Shown: piece by piece, positions 29,060-33,951 of the stretch | Layout of the letters: each line of letters starts with the position of its first letter | Numbering within the stretch: the stretch's first letter is position 1 | Assembly: GCA_964551945.1 (NCBI GenBank) | Contig: CAZKFH010000001.1 | Span: forward strand, 81,274 to 145,273 | Length of the DNA: 64,000 bases | Direction: 5' to 3' | Source: an uncultured Actinomycetes bacterium | GTDB lineage: Bacteria > Actinomycetota > UBA4738 > CALAEC01 | Position numbers and translations under genes: made by a program | The notes under the pieces: model-generated | What the model was told of the DNA's origin: nothing | The model's database searches: none | The model's input: only the letters and a program-made list of their open reading frames with translations

Positions 29060-29517
29060 AGCGCAGGCGGCAGAACGCGATCCTCGACCTGGTCCGGAAG
29101 GAATCGCTCGGCTCGCAGGCGGCGATCCTCGAGCGGCTGCGCGAGCAGGGCTTCGAGGTCACGCAGCCGACAGTGTCGCGTGACCTGGAGGAGCTCGGGC
29201 TGGTTCGTGCGCGGGACGAGGAGGGGCACCTCCGATACGTTCCTCCCGGCGCGGCGACCAACGGGCACGGGGTCGAGCGCCTGCACCGCGTGCTGGCGGA
29301 GTTTGTCATGGGGCTCGAGGCCTCGCGGAACATCGTCGTGGTGCGGACTCCCCCGGGCTCCGCGAACACGGTTGCGCAGGTGATCGACCAGGTCGGGCTG
29401 GAGGACGTGATCGGTACGGTTGCCGGCGACGACACGATCCTGGTGGTGACGCGCGAGGGCGTCCGCGCGACGACCGTCGTGAAGCGCCTGCAGGACCTGA
29501 TCGAGGGCGCGGCATGA
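29056..29517 (+). CDS. argR: arginine repressor
   Basis: N-terminal wHTH 'QAAILERLREQGFEVTQPTVSRDLEEL' and C-terminal 'GTVAGDDTILVV' oligomerisation/arginine-binding motif. Confidence 0.85.
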   Translation: MKRRRQNAILDLVRKESLGSQAAILERLREQGFEVTQPTVSRDLEELGLVRARDEEGHLRYVPPGAATNGHGVERLHRVLAEFVMGLEASRNIVVVRTPPGSANTVAQVIDQVGLEDVIGTVAGDDTILVVTREGVRATTVVKRLQDLIEGAA

Positions 29518-32177
29518 CCGACCGCGTGGTGCTCGCGTACTCAGGTGGCCTGGACACCTCGGTCGCCGCGCGGACGCTCCGCGAGGAGCGGGGCCTCGAC
29601 GTCGTGGCGGCCTTCGTCGATCTCGGCCAGCCGTTCGACCGCGTGGAGGTGGAGGAGCGCGCAGCCGCGGCGGAGGTTGAGCTTCACGTCGTCGATGCGC
29701 GTGAGGTCTTCGCGTCTCAGTTCTGTTTGCCCGCGCTGCACGCCAACGCGCTGTACGAGGGCAAGTACCCCTTGGTCTCCGCGCTGGCCCGCCCATTGAT
29801 CGCCGCCGAGGTGGTCCGCATCGCCCGCGAGACCGGCGCGAAGTTCGTCGCGCACGGCTGCACGGGTAAGGGGAACGACCAGGTCCGGTTCGAGACGTCG
29901 TTCGCGGCGCTCGGGCCCGATCTCGGCGTGATCGCGCCGGTTCGTGAGGAGTCCCTGTCACGCGAGGAGTCGCTGGAGCGCGCAGCCCGGTGGGGGATCC
30001 CGATCCAGACGGTGGCCAAGAAGTACTCGGTGGACGAGAACCTGTGGGGCCGGACGGTCGAGTGCAGCGAGCTCGAGGATCCGTGGATCGAGCCGCCCGC
30101 CGACGCGTTCGAGCTCACCGTCGATCCGCGCCACGCGCCGGACGAGCCTGCGGAGATCGTGATCGGGTTCGAGGGCGGCGCGCCGGTGTCCCTCGACGGC
30201 GCGGGGTTGTCGCCCGTCGATCTGATCGCACGGCTCACCGAGGTCGCCGGCGCTCACGGGTACGGGCGCGTGGACATGGTCGAGAACCGCCTGGTGGGCA
30301 TCAAGTCGCGCGAGCTGTACGAGGTGCCCGGCGCGCTCGCGCTGATCGCCGCGCACCGCGAGCTTGAAGACCTGACGCTCGAGCGTGACCTGGCGCACGA
30401 GAAGGCCGGGCTTGAGCGCCGCTGGGCCGAGCTCTGCTACTACGGGCAGTGGTACGGACCGCTGCACGCGGGGCTGCGCGCGTTCATGGCCGAGACGCAG
30501 GCCGATGTCACCGGCGAAGTGCGGGTTCGATTCCACAAGGGCACGGCGACCGTGATCGGCCGGCGCAGCCCCAAGTCCCTCTACGACTTCTCGCTCGCGA
30601 CGTACGAGCGCGGCGCGGACCGGTTCGACCAGCGTCAGGCGGCCGGGTTCATCTCGCTGTGGTCGCTCCCGATCAAGACGTGGGCCGCGCGCGGAGCGAA
30701 CGTGCAGGGCGTGCCCGCTGCACCTGCTGCACCCCCACGCGCGGCCCAACCTGCTCCGACGCAGACCGAGTCGGCCCCGGTTGCGCCGGCGCCTTCGGGA
30801 AGTGTTCGTCCCACCTGGGCCGGTCGGTTCGAGTCGGCCCCCGCCGAGGATGCGATGGCGTTCACGAAGTCCCTCGGGTTCGACCGGCGGCTGATCCTGC
30901 AGGACCTCCTGGTCACGCGGTTGCATGTGGCCGCACTCGGACGGGCGAAGCTGCTCGAGGCAGAGGAGCGGAAGACCCTGGATGGCGAGCTCCAAAACCT
31001 GGCGGCGGAGGCGCGAGCGGGGGAGTTCCCGTTCGACGACGCCGACGAGGACGTGCACTCCTCCGTCGAGCGCGTCCTGACCGAGCGGCTGGGTGACCTC
31101 GGCGCGAAGGTGCACGCGGGTCGGAGCCGCAACGACCTGGTGGTCACCGATCTCCGTCTGTGGATCACCGAGGCCGCGGAGCGACTGACGGCGGCGTGCG
31201 AGAAGCTGGCCATCGCGCTCGCGAACCGGGCCGAGCAGAACGCCGAGACGATCGTGCCCGGGTACACGCACCTGCAACGAGCACAGCCGATCACGCTCGG
31301 TCACCACCTGATGGCGCATGCTTCCCCGCTGGCGCGCGACGCCGACAGGTTCCGGCTTGCCGCCGCCTCCGCGGGAACCTCGGCTCTCGGTGCCGGAGCG
31401 CTCGCCACATCCACGCTCGGGCTCGGCGCGACCGCGACCGCGGAGGTCCTCGGCTTCGACGTCTTCGACAACTCGATCGACGCCGTGAGCGATCGTGACT
31501 TCGCGCTGGACTTCCTGGCGGCCTGCGTATCGACCGCGGTGCACGTCTCCCGGCTGGGCGAGGACTTGGTGCTGTGGTGCTCGCAGGAGTTCGGGTTCGC
31601 TCGGCCCCACGATGCGTACGCGACCGGGTCGAGCATGATGCCGCAGAAGCGGAACCCGGACGTCGCGGAGCTGGCACGCGGCAAGGCCGGCCGTGTCCTG
31701 GGCGACTACGTGCAGCTCGCGACCGTGCTCAAGGGCCTGCCGCTCGCATACGCGCGCGACCTCCAGGAGGACAAGGAGGCGGTGTTCGACGCGCACGACG
31801 CGCTGCTCCCCGCACTCGAGGCGCTGAGCGGCATGGTCGAGTCGCTCACGTTCGACAAGGAGCGCATGCGCCAGGCCGCGAGCGACCCGTCATTGCTTGC
31901 CACGGACCTCACCGAGCACCTGGTCCGCAAGGGCGTCCCGTTCCGCGAGGCACACGAAGCGATCGGCGGTCTCGTCGCGAAGCTTGAAGCTGAAGGACGA
32001 ACCCTCGGCGACGTCAAGCCAGACGAGTGGTCGGGGCTCGATGGGCGTCTCGACGAGGAGACGGGCGTCCTGCTCGATCCTGAGATCTCGATCTCTCATC
32101 GCGCCGGGCCCGGTGGTCCGTCACCGAACTCGGTCCGCGACCAGGTCGCGGTGCTGCGCTCGAAGCTCGGCCGCTGA
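29514..32177 (+). CDS. argG/argH: argininosuccinate synthase fused in-frame to argininosuccinate lyase (ArgG-ArgH) via a Pro/Ala-rich linker
   Basis: N-terminal 'AYSGGLDTS' ArgG P-loop through '…SLWSLPIKTW'. A ~40-aa PAAPAAPPRAAQPAPTQTESAPVAPAPS linker (nt ~30687-30812). Then ArgH 'WAGRFE…' to 'GSSMMPQKRNPD'. No stop codon between the two. Confidence 0.7.
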   Translation: MTDRVVLAYSGGLDTSVAARTLREERGLDVVAAFVDLGQPFDRVEVEERAAAAEVELHVVDAREVFASQFCLPALHANALYEGKYPLVSALARPLIAAEVVRIARETGAKFVAHGCTGKGNDQVRFETSFAALGPDLGVIAPVREESLSREESLERAARWGIPIQTVAKKYSVDENLWGRTVECSELEDPWIEPPADAFELTVDPRHAPDEPAEIVIGFEGGAPVSLDGAGLSPVDLIARLTEVAGAHGYGRVDMVENRLVGIKSRELYEVPGALALIAAHRELEDLTLERDLAHEKAGLERRWAELCYYGQWYGPLHAGLRAFMAETQADVTGEVRVRFHKGTATVIGRRSPKSLYDFSLATYERGADRFDQRQAAGFISLWSLPIKTWAARGANVQGVPAAPAAPPRAAQPAPTQTESAPVAPAPSGSVRPTWAGRFESAPAEDAMAFTKSLGFDRRLILQDLLVTRLHVAALGRAKLLEAEERKTLDGELQNLAAEARAGEFPFDDADEDVHSSVERVLTERLGDLGAKVHAGRSRNDLVVTDLRLWITEAAERLTAACEKLAIALANRAEQNAETIVPGYTHLQRAQPITLGHHLMAHASPLARDADRFRLAAASAGTSALGAGALATSTLGLGATATAEVLGFDVFDNSIDAVSDRDFALDFLAACVSTAVHVSRLGEDLVLWCSQEFGFARPHDAYATGSSMMPQKRNPDVAELARGKAGRVLGDYVQLATVLKGLPLAYARDLQEDKEAVFDAHDALLPALEALSGMVESLTFDKERMRQAASDPSLLATDLTEHLVRKGVPFREAHEAIGGLVAKLEAEGRTLGDVKPDEWSGLDGRLDEETGVLLDPEISISHRAGPGGPSPNSVRDQVAVLRSKLGR

Positions 32178-32218
32178 CGCCAACGCACAAGTTGGCGGCC
32201 GCGCGTACTCTCTCCGAG

Positions 32219-32587
32219 ATGGACTCTGGAGCCGAGGAGGTGGAGGCGTACCTCGCCGGGGTGCCTGAGGATGCGCGCGCGGAACTCGAGAACATTCGGA
32301 AGACGATCCGTGCCGCCGCCGGGCCGAACGCCGAGGAGGGCTTCAGCTACGGGATCCCCGCTTTCAAGCTGAACGGAAGGCCCCTGGTCGCCTACGCGGC
32401 GCTGAAGAACCACTGCAGCTTCTTCCCGATGAGTCCCGCCGTGATCCAGGCGCACGCGAAGGAGCTCTCGGGCTACGAGACCGCGAAGGGCACCATCCGG
32501 TTCACCGCGGACAATCCGCTTCCGTCCGCGTTGGTTCGGAAACTCGTCAAGGCGCGGATCGCAGAGAGCGAGGCCCCGGAAGCGTGA
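32219..32587 (+). CDS. DUF1801 (YdhG-like) domain protein
   Basis: 'VEAYLAGVPEDARAELENIRKTI' typical DUF1801 N-terminus. Track start 32192 (TTG); ATG at 32219 preferred. Confidence 0.6.
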   Translation: MDSGAEEVEAYLAGVPEDARAELENIRKTIRAAAGPNAEEGFSYGIPAFKLNGRPLVAYAALKNHCSFFPMSPAVIQAHAKELSGYETAKGTIRFTADNPLPSALVRKLVKARIAESEAPEA

Positions 32588-32871
32588 GTCGTCGCCAACG
32601 AGGTGAGTTCACACAGCGCGTGCGTGACCGCATCCTTTCATTGCGGCCGGGGGAGGTCGCCACATACGGGGAGATCGCTGAGGAGGCAGGGTCCCCCCGA
32701 GCGGCTCAGGCTGTCGGCAACGTGCTCTCGCGAGGGGATGGACTCCCGTGGTGGAGGGTCGTAACCGTCACGGGACGCTTCGCGCCTGGGCACGAGGCTG
32801 AGCAGGCGGCGCAGCTTCGGCGCGAGGGTCACACGGTTGGCCCAAACGGCTTCCAGAGGTTCAGGGCGTGA
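32584..32871 (+). CDS. atl: alkyltransferase-like protein (MGMT-family DNA-binding domain lacking the catalytic Cys: 'PWWRV' instead of 'PCHRV')
   Basis: 95 aa. 'GEVATYGEIA…GNVLSRGDGLPWWRVV' is the MGMT C-terminal domain with Trp at the Cys-acceptor position, as in ATL proteins. GTGA overlap with the upstream gene. Confidence 0.7.
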   Translation: MSRRQRGEFTQRVRDRILSLRPGEVATYGEIAEEAGSPRAAQAVGNVLSRGDGLPWWRVVTVTGRFAPGHEAEQAAQLRREGHTVGPNGFQRFRA

Positions 32872-33542
32872 CCGCCGACCTCGACGCCCGCGTTCGCCTC
32901 CACATCTACCGAACGTTCGTGGACCGCGGGACGCCGCCGACGACCGAGGAGACCGCCTCTGCGCTCTCGCTGTCCGAGCCCGGAGCCGCCGATGCGTACC
33001 GGCGGCTGGCGGAGGCGCACGCGATCGTGCTCGAGCCCGGCTCCACCGACGTCTGGATGGCGAACCCGCTCTCAGCCCGGCCCACGCCCTTCGAAGTTCG
33101 GACCGCGGTTGGCCGCAGTTGGTATGGCGTGTGTGCGTGGGATGCGCCGGGCGTGCTGGCGATGGTCGGCAGCGATGGTGTGGTCAGGTCGAGCTGCCCC
33201 GACTGCGACGAGCCGCTCGAGCTGATCGTCGAGAACGGAGAGATGCGCGGCCCGGAGGGGGCGGTCGCCCACTTCCTCGTCCCCGCCAAGCGCTTCTGGG
33301 ACGACATCGGTTTCACCTGAAGCACGATGCTTCTCTTCCGGTCGGAAGAGCACGTCGACACATGGTGCGGGGAGCGAGGCGATCAGAAGGGCGCGGTTCT
33401 CACGCTCGACCAGCTCTGGGGGCTGGGGAAGGCTTGGCACGGTCCGCGACTCGAACTCGACTGGCGCCGTCCGGCACCCGACGAGGCAGAGACGCTCTTC
33501 GCTTCCCTCGGACTCACCGGGGACTTCTGGCGACTGACCTGA
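32868..33542 (+). CDS. MerB-like organomercurial lyase homolog with in-frame TGA (33318-33320) at the catalytic Cys159 position; predicted selenoprotein
   Basis: 'YGVCAWDAPGVLAMVG' aligns with MerB 'YAWCALDTLIFPALIG' (Cys96/Asp99). 'GFT-[TGA]-STMLLFRSEEHVDTW' aligns with 'SFCCHVHFFASVPTAEDW'. Cys-to-TGA spacing is 62 against 63 in MerB. The two parts are in the same frame. GTGA overlap with atl. Confidence 0.6.
33333..33350 (+). promoter_or_regulatory. putative SECIS hairpin (CUCUUCC-GGUC-GGAAGAG) 12 nt downstream of the in-frame UGA
   Basis: Perfect 7-bp stem (8 bp with a 2-nt loop alternative), GU in the loop, at the canonical bacterial SECIS distance. Confidence 0.5.
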
Positions 33543-33555
33543 TGAAGGCGGGAAC

Positions 33556-33951
33556 ATGACACCGACCGAGAAGCAGCCGGGACCGAAGGAGGTCGACGCC
33601 TACCTGGCGAACGTCCCCGAGGAACCGCGGGCGGCACTCGAGAAGCTTCGGAAGGCGATACGGGCAGCCGCGCCGACGGCGACCGAGACGATCAGCTACG
33701 GCATGCCCACATTCAAGATGAACGGTCGGTTCCTGGTGTCGTACGCGGCCTGGAAGAAACATTGCAGCCTCTACCCGGTCTCGGCCTCTTCCTTGGAGGC
33801 GGTCGGGGAGGACCCTGCGGAGTTCGACGTCTCCAAGGGGACCGTGCGATTCCCGCACGCAAAACCTCCGCCGGCTTCGCTCGTTCGCAAGCTGGTGAAG
33901 GATCGGATCGCGAATGAGTTGAGGAGATCTACAAGGGCTGATCGAGCCTGA
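33556..33951 (+). CDS. DUF1801 (YdhG-like) domain protein, second paralog
   Basis: 'VDAYLANVPEEPRAALEKLRKAI'; paralog of 32219-32587. Confidence 0.6.
   Translation: MTPTEKQPGPKEVDAYLANVPEEPRAALEKLRKAIRAAAPTATETISYGMPTFKMNGRFLVSYAAWKKHCSLYPVSASSLEAVGEDPAEFDVSKGTVRFPHAKPPPASLVRKLVKDRIANELRRSTRADRA

What the first reader, a model, noticed from the sequence alone, without database searches (positions are those of the whole stretch)
32219..33951. Translationally coupled DUF1801 - ATL (Cys-less MGMT) - MerB-like(Sec) - DUF1801 operon: possible undescribed alkyl-lesion or organometal detoxification/repair module
Four co-oriented genes have overlapping stop/start codons (GTGA at 32584-32587 and 32868-32871; 13-nt gap before the second DUF1801). 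The ATL protein has PWWRV where MGMTs have the PCHRV acceptor cysteine. That is the hallmark of alkyltransferase-like proteins that bind O6-alkylguanine without repairing it. ATL is fused into an operon with an enzyme whose characterised homolog (MerB) cleaves carbon-metal bonds by protonolysis with a Cys/Asp/Cys triad, here Cys/Asp/Sec. Two paralogous DUF1801 proteins bracket the pair. The combination of an alkyl-lesion recognition protein with a C-X bond lyase suggests a coupled sensor-plus-chemistry system. Candidate roles are organomercury/organotin-DNA adduct handling or alkyl-lesion processing. It is not a described arrangement to my knowledge.
Basis: inference. Interest (0 to 1): 0.8.

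Follow-up and report, generated by a model that had tools for sequence, protein, structure and literature searches.

The report
Lineage-specific operon holding a MerB-like selenoprotein
The four overlapping genes are real, but the pairing of a DNA-alkylation sensor with a MerB-like enzyme occurs only in one narrow actinobacterial lineage, so it is not a general repair module. The more notable result is that the MerB-like gene belongs to a large family of selenocysteine proteins that databases truncate at the UGA codon.

Summary
Observation confirmed. DUF1801 (32192/32219-32587), ATL (32584-32871), MerB-like (32868-33542, in-frame TGA at 33318-33320) and DUF1801 (33556-33951) are co-oriented, with GTGA overlaps and a 13-nt gap.

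The Sec reading is strongly supported:
- All 161 related loci that reach this codon have TGA.
- Cys homologs align at that position.
- The downstream part is under purifying selection (dN/dS 0.07).
- A covarying hairpin with a GGUC loop lies 20 nt after the UGA.

The "ATL + lyase module" is not supported as a general system.
- The four-gene order occurs only where the MerB-like protein is at least 77% identical (five independent contigs).
- Equally close relatives have DUF1801-ATL-DUF1801 without MerB, MerB-DUF1801-ATL, DUF1801-MerB, or MerB alone.
- About 150 more distant family members, spread across four phyla, have neither neighbour and no mer genes.
- Elsewhere the ATL subfamily sits next to Tag or a DNA ligase.
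- The window's ATL has Gln in place of the arginine finger.

Best reading: a lineage-specific accessory cluster at the tail of the arginine operon, into which a stand-alone MerB-superfamily selenoprotein gene was inserted. That family is distinct from MerB and from SaoL. I found no description of it.

The parts
29514..32177 (+). argG-argH fusion gene, the last arginine-biosynthesis gene. The cluster follows it after 14-41 nt.
   Evidence: Pfam Arginosuc_synth + Lyase_1 + ASL_C2. The same fusion lies upstream of the cluster variants in L081, L164, L166 and L001.
32192..32587 (+). DUF1801 / YdhG-like protein 1. The start is TTG 32192 or ATG 32219. Its stop overlaps the ATL start (GTGA).
   Evidence: PF08818 E 5.3e-16. 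The ortholog in L081 is 82% identical. dN/dS 0.21.
32584..32871 (+). Short alkyltransferase-like (ATL) protein of 95 aa. It has PWWRV in place of PCHRV, Tyr28 is present, and the arginine-finger position is Gln42 (CAG at 32707-32709).
   Evidence: PF01035 E 6.6e-16. The best PDB matches are vpAtl 2KIF and Atl1 3GVA. Subfamily alignment A3. dN/dS 0.12.
32868..33542 (+). MerB-superfamily selenoprotein gene of 224 codons: N-terminal winged helix plus MerB core, with Cys89, Asp92 and Sec151.
   Evidence: PF03243 E 5.6e-31 across the TGA. PDB matches MerB2 5C17 and MerB 3F2G. The Cys homolog P0120 aligns YT-C-S with FT-[TGA]-S. A model of P0120 (pLDDT 96) matches only MerB and MerB2.
33318..33320 (+). 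In-frame UGA read as selenocysteine, at the position of MerB Cys159.
   Evidence: TGA in 81/81 genome loci and 80/80 metagenome loci that reach the codon, while the true stops are a mix of TGA, TAG and TAA. The 73 codons after it have dN/dS 0.07.
33333..33350 (+). SECIS-type hairpin CUCUUCC-GGUC-GGAAGAG. The loop occupies nt 23-26 counted from the U of UGA.
   Evidence: The hairpin is present in the MFE fold. Across 143 distinct sequences, 91.7% of cells are paired, 72 cells carry changes on both sides, and 0 of 500 shuffles reach the observed score. Synonymous codons are frozen: Arg+7 is CGG in 139/147, Ser+8 is TCG in 141/141.
33556..33951 (+). DUF1801 / YdhG-like protein 2, a paralog of the first (about 55% identical). 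It lies 13 nt after the MerB-like stop.
   Evidence: PF08818 E 2.3e-15. PDB matches are YdhG-like 9T2W and 2OC6. dN/dS 0.30.

Best explanation
This is a lineage-specific accessory gene cluster at the 3' end of the arginine-biosynthesis operon of an uncultured actinobacterium.

Its core appears to be a translationally coupled DUF1801-ATL-DUF1801 trio. That trio also exists, in the same synteny, without any MerB-like gene. In the window's sub-lineage, a gene for a MerB-superfamily selenoprotein sits between ATL and the second DUF1801.

The MerB-like protein is an independent functional unit. It belongs to a large family found in soil Actinomycetota, Chloroflexota, Acidobacteriota and Gemmatimonadota. 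In this family the third active-site residue (MerB Cys159) is always encoded by UGA, and a SelB-type SECIS hairpin with a GGUC tetraloop follows 20 nt downstream. The gene is normally solitary.

Inferred, not shown: the protein most likely uses Cys89, Asp92 and Sec151 to bind a soft metal or metalloid and to protonolyse a carbon-metal bond, as MerB does. The ATL most likely acts separately in the usual ATL way, binding O6-alkylguanine and handing it to nucleotide excision repair, although this particular copy has lost the arginine finger. Co-transcription reflects shared expression at a permissive operon tail, not a shared substrate.
For: Gene identities.

Selenoprotein evidence:
- 119 of the 120 best protein hits are cut at the same residue.
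- The Cys homolog aligns at the UGA.
- TGA is present in all 161 loci that reach the codon.
- Synonymous sites are frozen and the hairpin covaries.
- dN/dS after the UGA is 0.07.
- TGA also serves as the ordinary stop of all four genes of the cluster.

Arrangement variants within the clade:
- DUF1801-ATL-MerB-DUF1801: window, L081/82, L083. Partial views consistent with it: L093 (DUF1801-ATL-MerB, contig ends) and the P0006 contig (ATL-MerB-DUF1801).
- DUF1801-ATL-DUF1801: L164 and L167. The ArgGH of L164 is 89% identical to the window's, the same as L081.
- MerB-DUF1801-ATL: L166.
- DUF1801-MerB: L001.
- MerB with no ATL or DUF1801 on its upstream side (downstream only partly seen): L085/L091.

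No conserved partner in 80 species-level loci. The commonest neighbours are M16 peptidase, RNase J, DapA/DapB and PurMNH, and no mer genes occur.

Elsewhere the ATL subfamily sits next to Tag and an ATP-dependent DNA ligase.

All four genes are under purifying selection. No internal promoter-like site was found, and the single terminator-like match (32620-32633, inside the ATL gene) is no more than the shuffles give.
Against: Within the clade, the three gene types keep turning up together downstream of argGH in different orders. This could reflect selection for co-expression rather than mere synteny. Stop/start overlaps are maintained on both sides of the inserted MerB-like gene. The direction of the event (insertion or loss of the MerB-like gene) is not resolved. 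The selenocysteine machinery (selA, selB, selC, selD) could not be checked in the source genome; none lies in the 64-kb window. No biochemical data exist for any member of this MerB-like family, for the ATL subfamily or for these DUF1801 proteins.
Confidence: 0.7

Rival explanations
1. One reading: ATL and the MerB-like selenoenzyme form a dedicated sensor-plus-chemistry module. ATL recognises an alkyl or organometal lesion on DNA, and the lyase cleaves the C-X bond. The DUF1801 proteins act as accessory factors.
For: The gene pair has overlapping stop and start codons and is retained in five independent contigs, one of which (P0006) has a different downstream context. All genes are under purifying selection. 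L166 keeps all three gene types together in a different order.
Against: No ATL lies next to the MerB-like gene on the same strand in any of the 80 species-level genome loci, or in any metagenome locus where the MerB-like protein is less than 77% identical. Sister genomes have the trio without MerB (L164, L167), or MerB without ATL (L001, L085/L091). The window's ATL lacks the arginine finger needed for base flipping. ATL relatives pair with Tag or a ligase instead.
Confidence: 0.08
2. The cluster is a co-regulated small-protein stress or detoxification operon. The DUF1801 (YdhG/frataxin-like) proteins would be the functional link, for example as metal or cofactor chaperones serving both ATL and the MerB-like enzyme. 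There would be no direct ATL-MerB chemistry.
For: DUF1801 is adjacent in every clade context that contains ATL. It is also adjacent to the MerB-like gene down to 69% identity: L001, L084 and L166 as well as the four-gene clusters. The DUF1801-ATL-DUF1801 trio keeps its overlapping junctions in L164 and L167.
Against: Outside the clade, neither ATL relatives nor MerB-like relatives have DUF1801 neighbours. L085/L091 have the MerB-like gene with no DUF1801 on the upstream side. DUF1801 has no established biochemical function, and only the Bacillus Fra/YdhG analogy exists.
Confidence: 0.18
3. The MerB-like ORF is a pseudogene, or two separate genes (150 aa and 71 aa). On this view the UGA is a real stop.
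For: Gene callers and NCBI annotation report 146-151 aa 'organomercurial lyase' proteins, and a separate 71-aa ORF with a weak MerB hit. The Sec machinery was not seen in the window.
Against: The codon is TGA, never TAA or TAG, in all 161 loci that reach it, and the downstream part is always in frame. The ATG three codons downstream is not conserved: Met in 73% of sequences, otherwise codons such as ATC or CTG. dN/dS is 0.07 downstream of the UGA. Cys occupies the same column in full-length homologs. The SECIS hairpin covaries. A single Pfam MerB match spans the TGA.
Confidence: 0.03

Closest known systems
SaoL, the MerB-like organometallic lyase selenoprotein of the SAO locus (NCBIfam NF040728; Haft & Gwadz 2022, bioRxiv 10.1101/2022.07.06.499078)
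   Same: MerB fold. Sec replaces the residue equivalent to MerB Cys159, while the Cys and Asp equivalents of Cys96 and Asp99 are kept. Databases truncate the protein at the UGA.
   Different: The score against NF040728 is 46 bits against a cut-off of 140. The motif is Thr-Sec, not Cys-Sec. About 73 residues follow the Sec, not about 50. The hosts are soil Actinomycetota, Chloroflexota, Acidobacteriota and Gemmatimonadota rather than strict anaerobes. There is no nine-gene SAO neighbourhood; the gene is solitary.
MerB / MerB2 organomercurial lyase (EC 4.99.1.2; PDB 3F0P, 5C17)
   Same: Same fold: Foldseek probability 1.00 and TM about 0.65-0.72 for the Cys homolog model. The active-site positions C96 and D99 are conserved as C89 and D92.
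   Different: Sec replaces Cys159. Only 14-20% identity. Scores fall far below the NCBIfam MerB cut-offs (38 against 193, and 31 against 200). No merR, merA, merT or merP nearby. An extra conserved CxxC is present at residues 110-113.
Alkyltransferase-like proteins (E. coli YbaZ/eATL, S. pombe Atl1, V. parahaemolyticus vpAtl; review PMC10779285)
   Same: Stand-alone MGMT C-terminal domain. Trp replaces the acceptor Cys. The base-flipping Tyr and the HTH are conserved. The best PDB hits are vpAtl and Atl1.
   Different: The motif is PWWRV rather than PWHRV. The protein is very short at 95 aa. In this copy the arginine finger is Gln, whereas at least 90% of the subfamily and the ATLs of the sister clusters have Arg.
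YdhG/Fra-type DUF1801 proteins (PDB 2OC6, 9T2W)
   Same: PF08818 domain covering nearly the whole protein.
   Different: No functional information applies. Here two paralogs bracket an ATL gene, an arrangement found only in this lineage.

Membership tests
Alkyltransferase-like (ATL) proteins | Homolog of the MGMT/AGT C-terminal DNA-binding domain without the N-terminal domain | tested here: met
   PF01035 E 6.6e-16, covering residues 8-82 of 95. PDB hits vpAtl 5.9e-8 and Atl1 2e-6.
Alkyltransferase-like (ATL) proteins | Acceptor Cys of PCHRV replaced, usually by Trp | tested here: met
   PWWRV at residues 55-59. P55, W56 and R58 are invariant and W57 is nearly so in the subfamily alignment.
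Alkyltransferase-like (ATL) proteins | Conserved base-flipping Tyr (hAGT Y114) | tested here: met
   Y28 is invariant in A3 and aligns with the Tyr of Atl1 and vpAtl.
Alkyltransferase-like (ATL) proteins | Arginine finger in the HTH (hAGT R128) | tested here: not met
   The window has Gln42 (PRAAQAVG). Arg is present in at least 90% of the subfamily and in the ATLs of L081, L083, L093 and L164. The feature is taken from PMC10779285.
Alkyltransferase-like (ATL) proteins | Binds O6-alkylguanine in DNA and recruits UvrA/UvrC | not testable with these tools
   This needs biochemistry.
MerB organomercurial lyase | MerB fold / PF03243 | tested here: met
   PF03243 E 5.6e-31. The Foldseek hits of the P0120 model with E <= 0.001 are only MerB and MerB2.
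MerB organomercurial lyase | Catalytic Cys96-Asp99-Cys159 triad | tested here: inconclusive
   C89 and D92 align with C96 and D99. The third position is UGA (Sec) instead of Cys. This is chemically analogous but not identical.
MerB organomercurial lyase | Reaches the curated NCBIfam equivalog score | tested here: not met
   NF009710: 38 bits against 193. NF033555: 30.9 against 200.
MerB organomercurial lyase | Encoded in a mer operon (merR, merA, merT/P) | tested here: not met
   The recurrent neighbour clusters of the 80 genome loci are housekeeping genes, with no mer family among them, and the window has none either.
SaoL (NF040728) | Score at or above the NF040728 cut-off, a CU dipeptide, and the nine-gene SAO neighbourhood | tested here: not met
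   46.1 bits against 140. The motif is T-U. The neighbourhoods are unrelated.
Bacterial SelB/SECIS-dependent selenoprotein | Conserved in-frame UGA, Cys in homologs at the same column, and conserved coding sequence on both sides | tested here: met
   TGA in all 161 loci that reach the codon. Cys in P0120 and in about 20 full-length relatives. dN/dS 0.07 downstream.
Bacterial SelB/SECIS-dependent selenoprotein | Stem-loop shortly downstream of the UGA with a conserved G/U-containing apical loop | tested here: met
   A 7-bp stem with a GGUC loop at nt 23-26 from the UGA. Compensatory changes occur (pair 19/30: UA 86, UG 39, CG 18, none unpaired), and 0 of 500 shuffles reach the score. Synonymous codons are frozen. 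The similarity to the E. coli fdhF GGUC loop at nt 22-25 is from my own knowledge.
Bacterial SelB/SECIS-dependent selenoprotein | selA, selB, selC and selD present in the genome | not testable with these tools
   None lies in the 64-kb window: no tRNA, no Rfam hit, and no SelA or SelD hit, with only a weak GTPase-domain match for SelB. The rest of the genome is not available.
Conserved functional gene module (ATL + MerB-like) | Adjacency maintained across divergent lineages | tested here: not met
   The adjacency occurs only where the MerB-like protein is at least 77% identical. It is absent from all 80 species-level genome loci and from the other metagenome loci, and the clade itself contains variants that lack one partner.

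The most novel reading that the evidence does not exclude
In this actinobacterial lineage, a Cys-Asp-Sec MerB-like selenoenzyme has been recruited into a DNA-damage-sensor operon (DUF1801-ATL-DUF1801) and acts with it, for example by removing organometal or bulky alkyl adducts that ATL flags on DNA. This would be the first link between carbon-metal lyase chemistry and DNA repair.
Probability: 0.06. Interest if true: 0.85.

Novelty: new variant of a known kind. Interest (0 to 1): 0.45.

Why it matters
The proposed repair or detoxification module would have been a new concept, but comparative genomics does not support it beyond one narrow lineage.

What does matter is the MerB-like gene. It marks a large MerB-superfamily group: 184 relatives among about 186,000 species-level genomes, and more than 300 protein clusters. 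All 161 related loci examined here carry the in-frame UGA, followed by a very well conserved SECIS element. Sequence databases cut these proteins at residue ~150 and label them 'organomercurial lyase' or 'hypothetical'.

The hosts are aerobic soil phyla not usually associated with rich selenoproteomes. The family is separate from the anaerobe-restricted SaoL. If confirmed, the finding would:
- correct hundreds of annotations;
- widen the known use of Sec as a metal-binding catalytic residue;
- provide a tractable candidate for new organometal(loid) chemistry in soils.

Tried and rejected
- Rfam gathering scan and tRNA scan of the window: nothing found, so no tRNA-Sec.
- tblastn with E. coli SelA, SelB and SelD against the window and all loci. 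The window gave only a weak GTPase-domain hit. The weak 'SelD' hits upstream of some MerB-like genes turned out to be PurM of a purM-purN-purH operon.
- The look-up of encoding contigs for the window's own truncated protein: not on record.
The Cys homolog P0120 was used instead.
The model from full-length Cys homologs (pLDDT 96) was used.
- Promoter and terminator scan: no promoter-like site, and one terminator-like match that is no more than chance.
- RNAalifold on ungapped sequences recovered only 4 bp. The explicit pair count on the 7-bp stem was informative.
- Pseudogene and split-gene readings: rejected (see rival explanations).
- mer-operon membership: rejected, since no mer neighbours occur anywhere.
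Full report
**1. The observation**

The six-frame ORF list and the sequence show four co-oriented genes on the + strand.
- DUF1801-1 runs from TTG 32192 or ATG 32219 to 32587.
- The ATL gene is 32584-32871.
- The MerB-like gene starts at GTG 32868, has an in-frame TGA at 33318-33320, and continues in the same frame to the stop at 33540-33542.
- DUF1801-2 is 33556-33951.

Pfam confirms the assignments: PF08818 at 5e-16 and 2e-15, PF01035 at 6.6e-16, and PF03243 at 5.6e-31. The single MerB match covers residues 68-191, so it spans the TGA at codon 151.

The cluster follows an argG-argH fusion gene (29514-32177) at the end of an arginine operon. A convergent FG-GAP/PQQ propeller gene, an EamA transporter gene and an M64 peptidase gene lie downstream. 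No promoter-like site lies inside the cluster, and the one terminator-like match (32620-32633) is no more than the shuffles give. All four genes are under purifying selection against the ortholog cluster in L081, with dN/dS 0.07-0.30.

**2. The MerB-like gene is a selenoprotein gene**

- Of the 120 best database hits, 119 are 140-178 aa proteins covering only 63-67% of the read-through protein. The 15 truncated hits that were aligned all end at ...I(G/A)(F/Y)T.
- The one full-length hit, P0120 (222 aa), has Cys exactly at the TGA column: YT-C-SNLLTF against FT-[TGA]-STMLLF.
- About 20 further full-length relatives also have Cys there.
- In 80 loci from species-level genomes plus the window, the codon is TGA in 81 of 81. 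The genuine terminators of the same genes are a mix of TGA, TAG and TAA.
- All 80 metagenome loci that reach the codon also have TGA, down to 40% protein identity.
- The reading frame always resumes for about 73 codons.
- The ATG three codons downstream is not conserved (Met in 73%). This argues against a separate second gene.
- The part after the UGA is the most strongly constrained piece of the cluster (dN/dS 0.07).

Twenty nucleotides after the UGA lies the hairpin CUCUUCC-GGUC-GGAAGAG (33333-33350). Synonymous sites under it are frozen. Arg+7 is CGG in 139/147 sequences and Ser+8 is TCG in 141/141, whereas other Arg codons of the same genes have about 2 bits of codon entropy. On 143 distinct sequences the stem is 91.7% paired and shows compensatory changes. 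Pair 19/30, for example, is UA in 86, UG in 39 and CG in 18 sequences, and is never unpaired. None of 500 shuffles reaches the observed covariation, and every slid register scores far lower. From my own knowledge, a GGUC apical loop at this distance matches the E. coli fdhF and Moorella SelB-binding motif.

TGA is also the ordinary stop of all four cluster genes, so a reassigned genetic code is excluded. What could not be tested is the presence of selA, selB, selC and selD: none lies in the window.

**3. What kind of MerB relative it is**

- Cys89 and Asp92 align with MerB Cys96 and Asp99, and the UGA aligns with Cys159.
- A high-confidence model of the Cys homolog (pLDDT 96.4) matches only MerB2 and MerB in the PDB, with probability 1.00 and TM 0.6-0.7.
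- The protein is neither canonical MerB nor SaoL by the curated NCBIfam cut-offs: 38 against 193, 31 against 200, and 46 against 140. No NCBIfam model claims its Cys relatives either.
- SaoL, the known MerB-like selenoprotein, has a CU motif, lives in strict anaerobes and marks a nine-gene locus.
- This family has a TU motif. It occurs in Actinomycetota (Gaiellaceae, Egibacteraceae), Chloroflexota, Acidobacteriota and Gemmatimonadota MAGs and has no conserved neighbours.
- The 2022 and 2026 selenoproteome reviews list only SaoL under MerB.

**4. The ATL**

The best solved relatives are vpAtl and Atl1. The protein has the stand-alone MGMT C-terminal domain, Trp in place of the acceptor Cys (PWWRV) and the base-flipping Tyr. 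These are the features listed for ATLs in PMC10779285.

It belongs to a large subfamily of ~90-100 aa actinobacterial 'MGMT family proteins' (452 hits). The arginine finger is at least 90% conserved in that subfamily and is present in the ATLs of the sister clusters. In the window copy it is Gln, a single CGG-to-CAG change. This predicts weakened base flipping.

**5. Is the four-gene arrangement a module?**

Across 80 species-level genome loci selected by the MerB-like gene:
- No ATL lies next to it on the same strand (one weak hit on the opposite strand, in L017).
- DUF1801 is adjacent only in the closest relative, L001, with a weak hit in L063.
- Clustering four neighbours on each side gives only housekeeping families, with no mer genes: M16 peptidase in 13 loci, RNase J in 9, DapA in 8, and DapB.
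- One subclade sits after purM-purN-purH.

The full arrangement was found only where the MerB-like protein is at least 77% identical:
- L081/L082, which also share the same argGH...EamA-M64-M14 synteny;
- L083;
- L093, where the contig ends inside the MerB-like gene;
- the P0006 contig, which shows ATL-MerB-DUF1801 and has a different downstream context.

Equally close relatives differ:
- L164 (ArgGH 89% identical, like L081) and L167 carry DUF1801-ATL-DUF1801 with overlapping junctions and no MerB-like gene.
- L166 has argGH-MerB(Sec)-DUF1801-ATL.
- L001 has argGH-DUF1801-MerB.
- L085/L091 have the MerB-like gene after argGH with no ATL or DUF1801 upstream.

Searching from the ATL side, other members of the subfamily sit next to:
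- 3-methyladenine glycosylase Tag, with an overlapping stop/start;
- an ATP-dependent DNA ligase;
- unrelated genes.

**6. Interpretation**

The three gene types are separable, and each occurs without the others in close relatives. The broad MerB-like family has no link to ATL or DUF1801, and the broad ATL subfamily has no link to MerB.

The simplest account is a variable accessory region at the tail of the arg operon in one lineage. Its core is DUF1801-ATL-DUF1801, and a stand-alone selenoprotein gene was inserted into it, or lost from it in some relatives. Overlapping start and stop codons are ordinary in high-GC operons and do not indicate a shared substrate.

A weaker form of functional linkage cannot be excluded, because the three families recur together in different orders within the clade. 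Examples are co-regulated stress genes, or DUF1801 proteins acting as common chaperones.

**7. Mechanism (inferred)**

The MerB-like protein most likely binds a soft metal or metalloid through Cys89 and Sec151, with Asp92 as proton donor, and cleaves a carbon-metal bond as MerB does. Sec gives a more nucleophilic, lower-pKa ligand. A conserved CxxC (residues 110-113) could take over the bound metal. The substrate is unknown.

The Cys-type relatives replace the Asp with Cys (C-x-W-C), which suggests a tri-thiolate metal site and possibly a different function.

ATL would act independently in flagging alkylation damage, and this copy is possibly impaired.

**8. Verdict**

- Novelty: a new variant of a known kind, namely a MerB-like selenoprotein family distinct from SaoL, plus a lineage-restricted gene arrangement.
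- Interest is moderate. It comes mainly from the unannotated selenoprotein family rather than from the operon.

Noticed in passing
window 29514-32177 (+): Argininosuccinate synthase and argininosuccinate lyase are fused in one 887-aa ORF. The same fusion occurs in L081, L164, L166 and L001, so it is a lineage trait and not an assembly artefact.
   Followed up: partly
window 32707-32709 (ATL codon 42): The arginine finger of the ATL is Gln (CAG) in this genome, and also in database protein P0123. At least 90% of the subfamily, and the ATLs of the sister clusters, have Arg (CGG). This may be a functional downgrade or a MAG consensus error.
   Followed up: partly
proteins P0120 and P0242-P0272 (alignment A5): Full-length Cys-type relatives of the MerB-like family have C-x-W-C instead of C-x-W-D. 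Their predicted site is therefore tri-Cys rather than Cys/Asp/Sec, which suggests a functional split between the Cys and Sec branches.
   Followed up: no
proteins P0298 and P0352 (alignment A5): Two database proteins have Trp exactly at the Sec column, followed by the LLFRSEE-type motif. Most likely the TGA was translated as Trp by a pipeline using genetic code 4.
   Followed up: no
L110 830-3989, also L101, L104, L109, L120: In one subclade the MerB-like(Sec) gene lies directly downstream of purM-purN-purH. The weak tblastn 'SelD' hits there are PurM. Elsewhere the gene sits by M16 peptidase, dapB, dapA and RNase J. It therefore tends to occupy the tails of housekeeping operons.
   Followed up: partly
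L002 and five other genome loci (neighbour cluster): An 81-aa glutaredoxin-like gene (CxxC) lies within a few genes of the MerB-like gene, always on the opposite strand, in 6 of 80 loci. A SAM-dependent methyltransferase (TehB/UbiE-like) is nearby in 4 of 80 loci.
   Followed up: no
window 33195-33206 (MerB-like residues 110-113, SCPDC): A CxxC pair is at least 90% conserved in the Sec-type proteins but absent from P0120-type Cys forms and from canonical MerB. It is a possible second metal or redox site.
   Followed up: no
L081 4966-5286, L164 2261-2575, L167 2292-2621: A conserved 104-109 aa ORF with no Pfam hit (tested for L081 and L164) sits between argGH (or other upstream genes) and the first DUF1801 in sister genomes. 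L091 (160-510) has a 116-aa ORF in the same position whose relationship was not checked. The ORF is missing from the window, where DUF1801-1 follows argGH directly.
   Followed up: no
JGI contig carrying P0144; L165 3001-4847: Members of the same short ATL subfamily are translationally coupled to 3-methyladenine DNA glycosylase I (Tag), or are followed by an ATP-dependent DNA ligase. This supports an ordinary DNA-repair role for the subfamily.
   Followed up: partly
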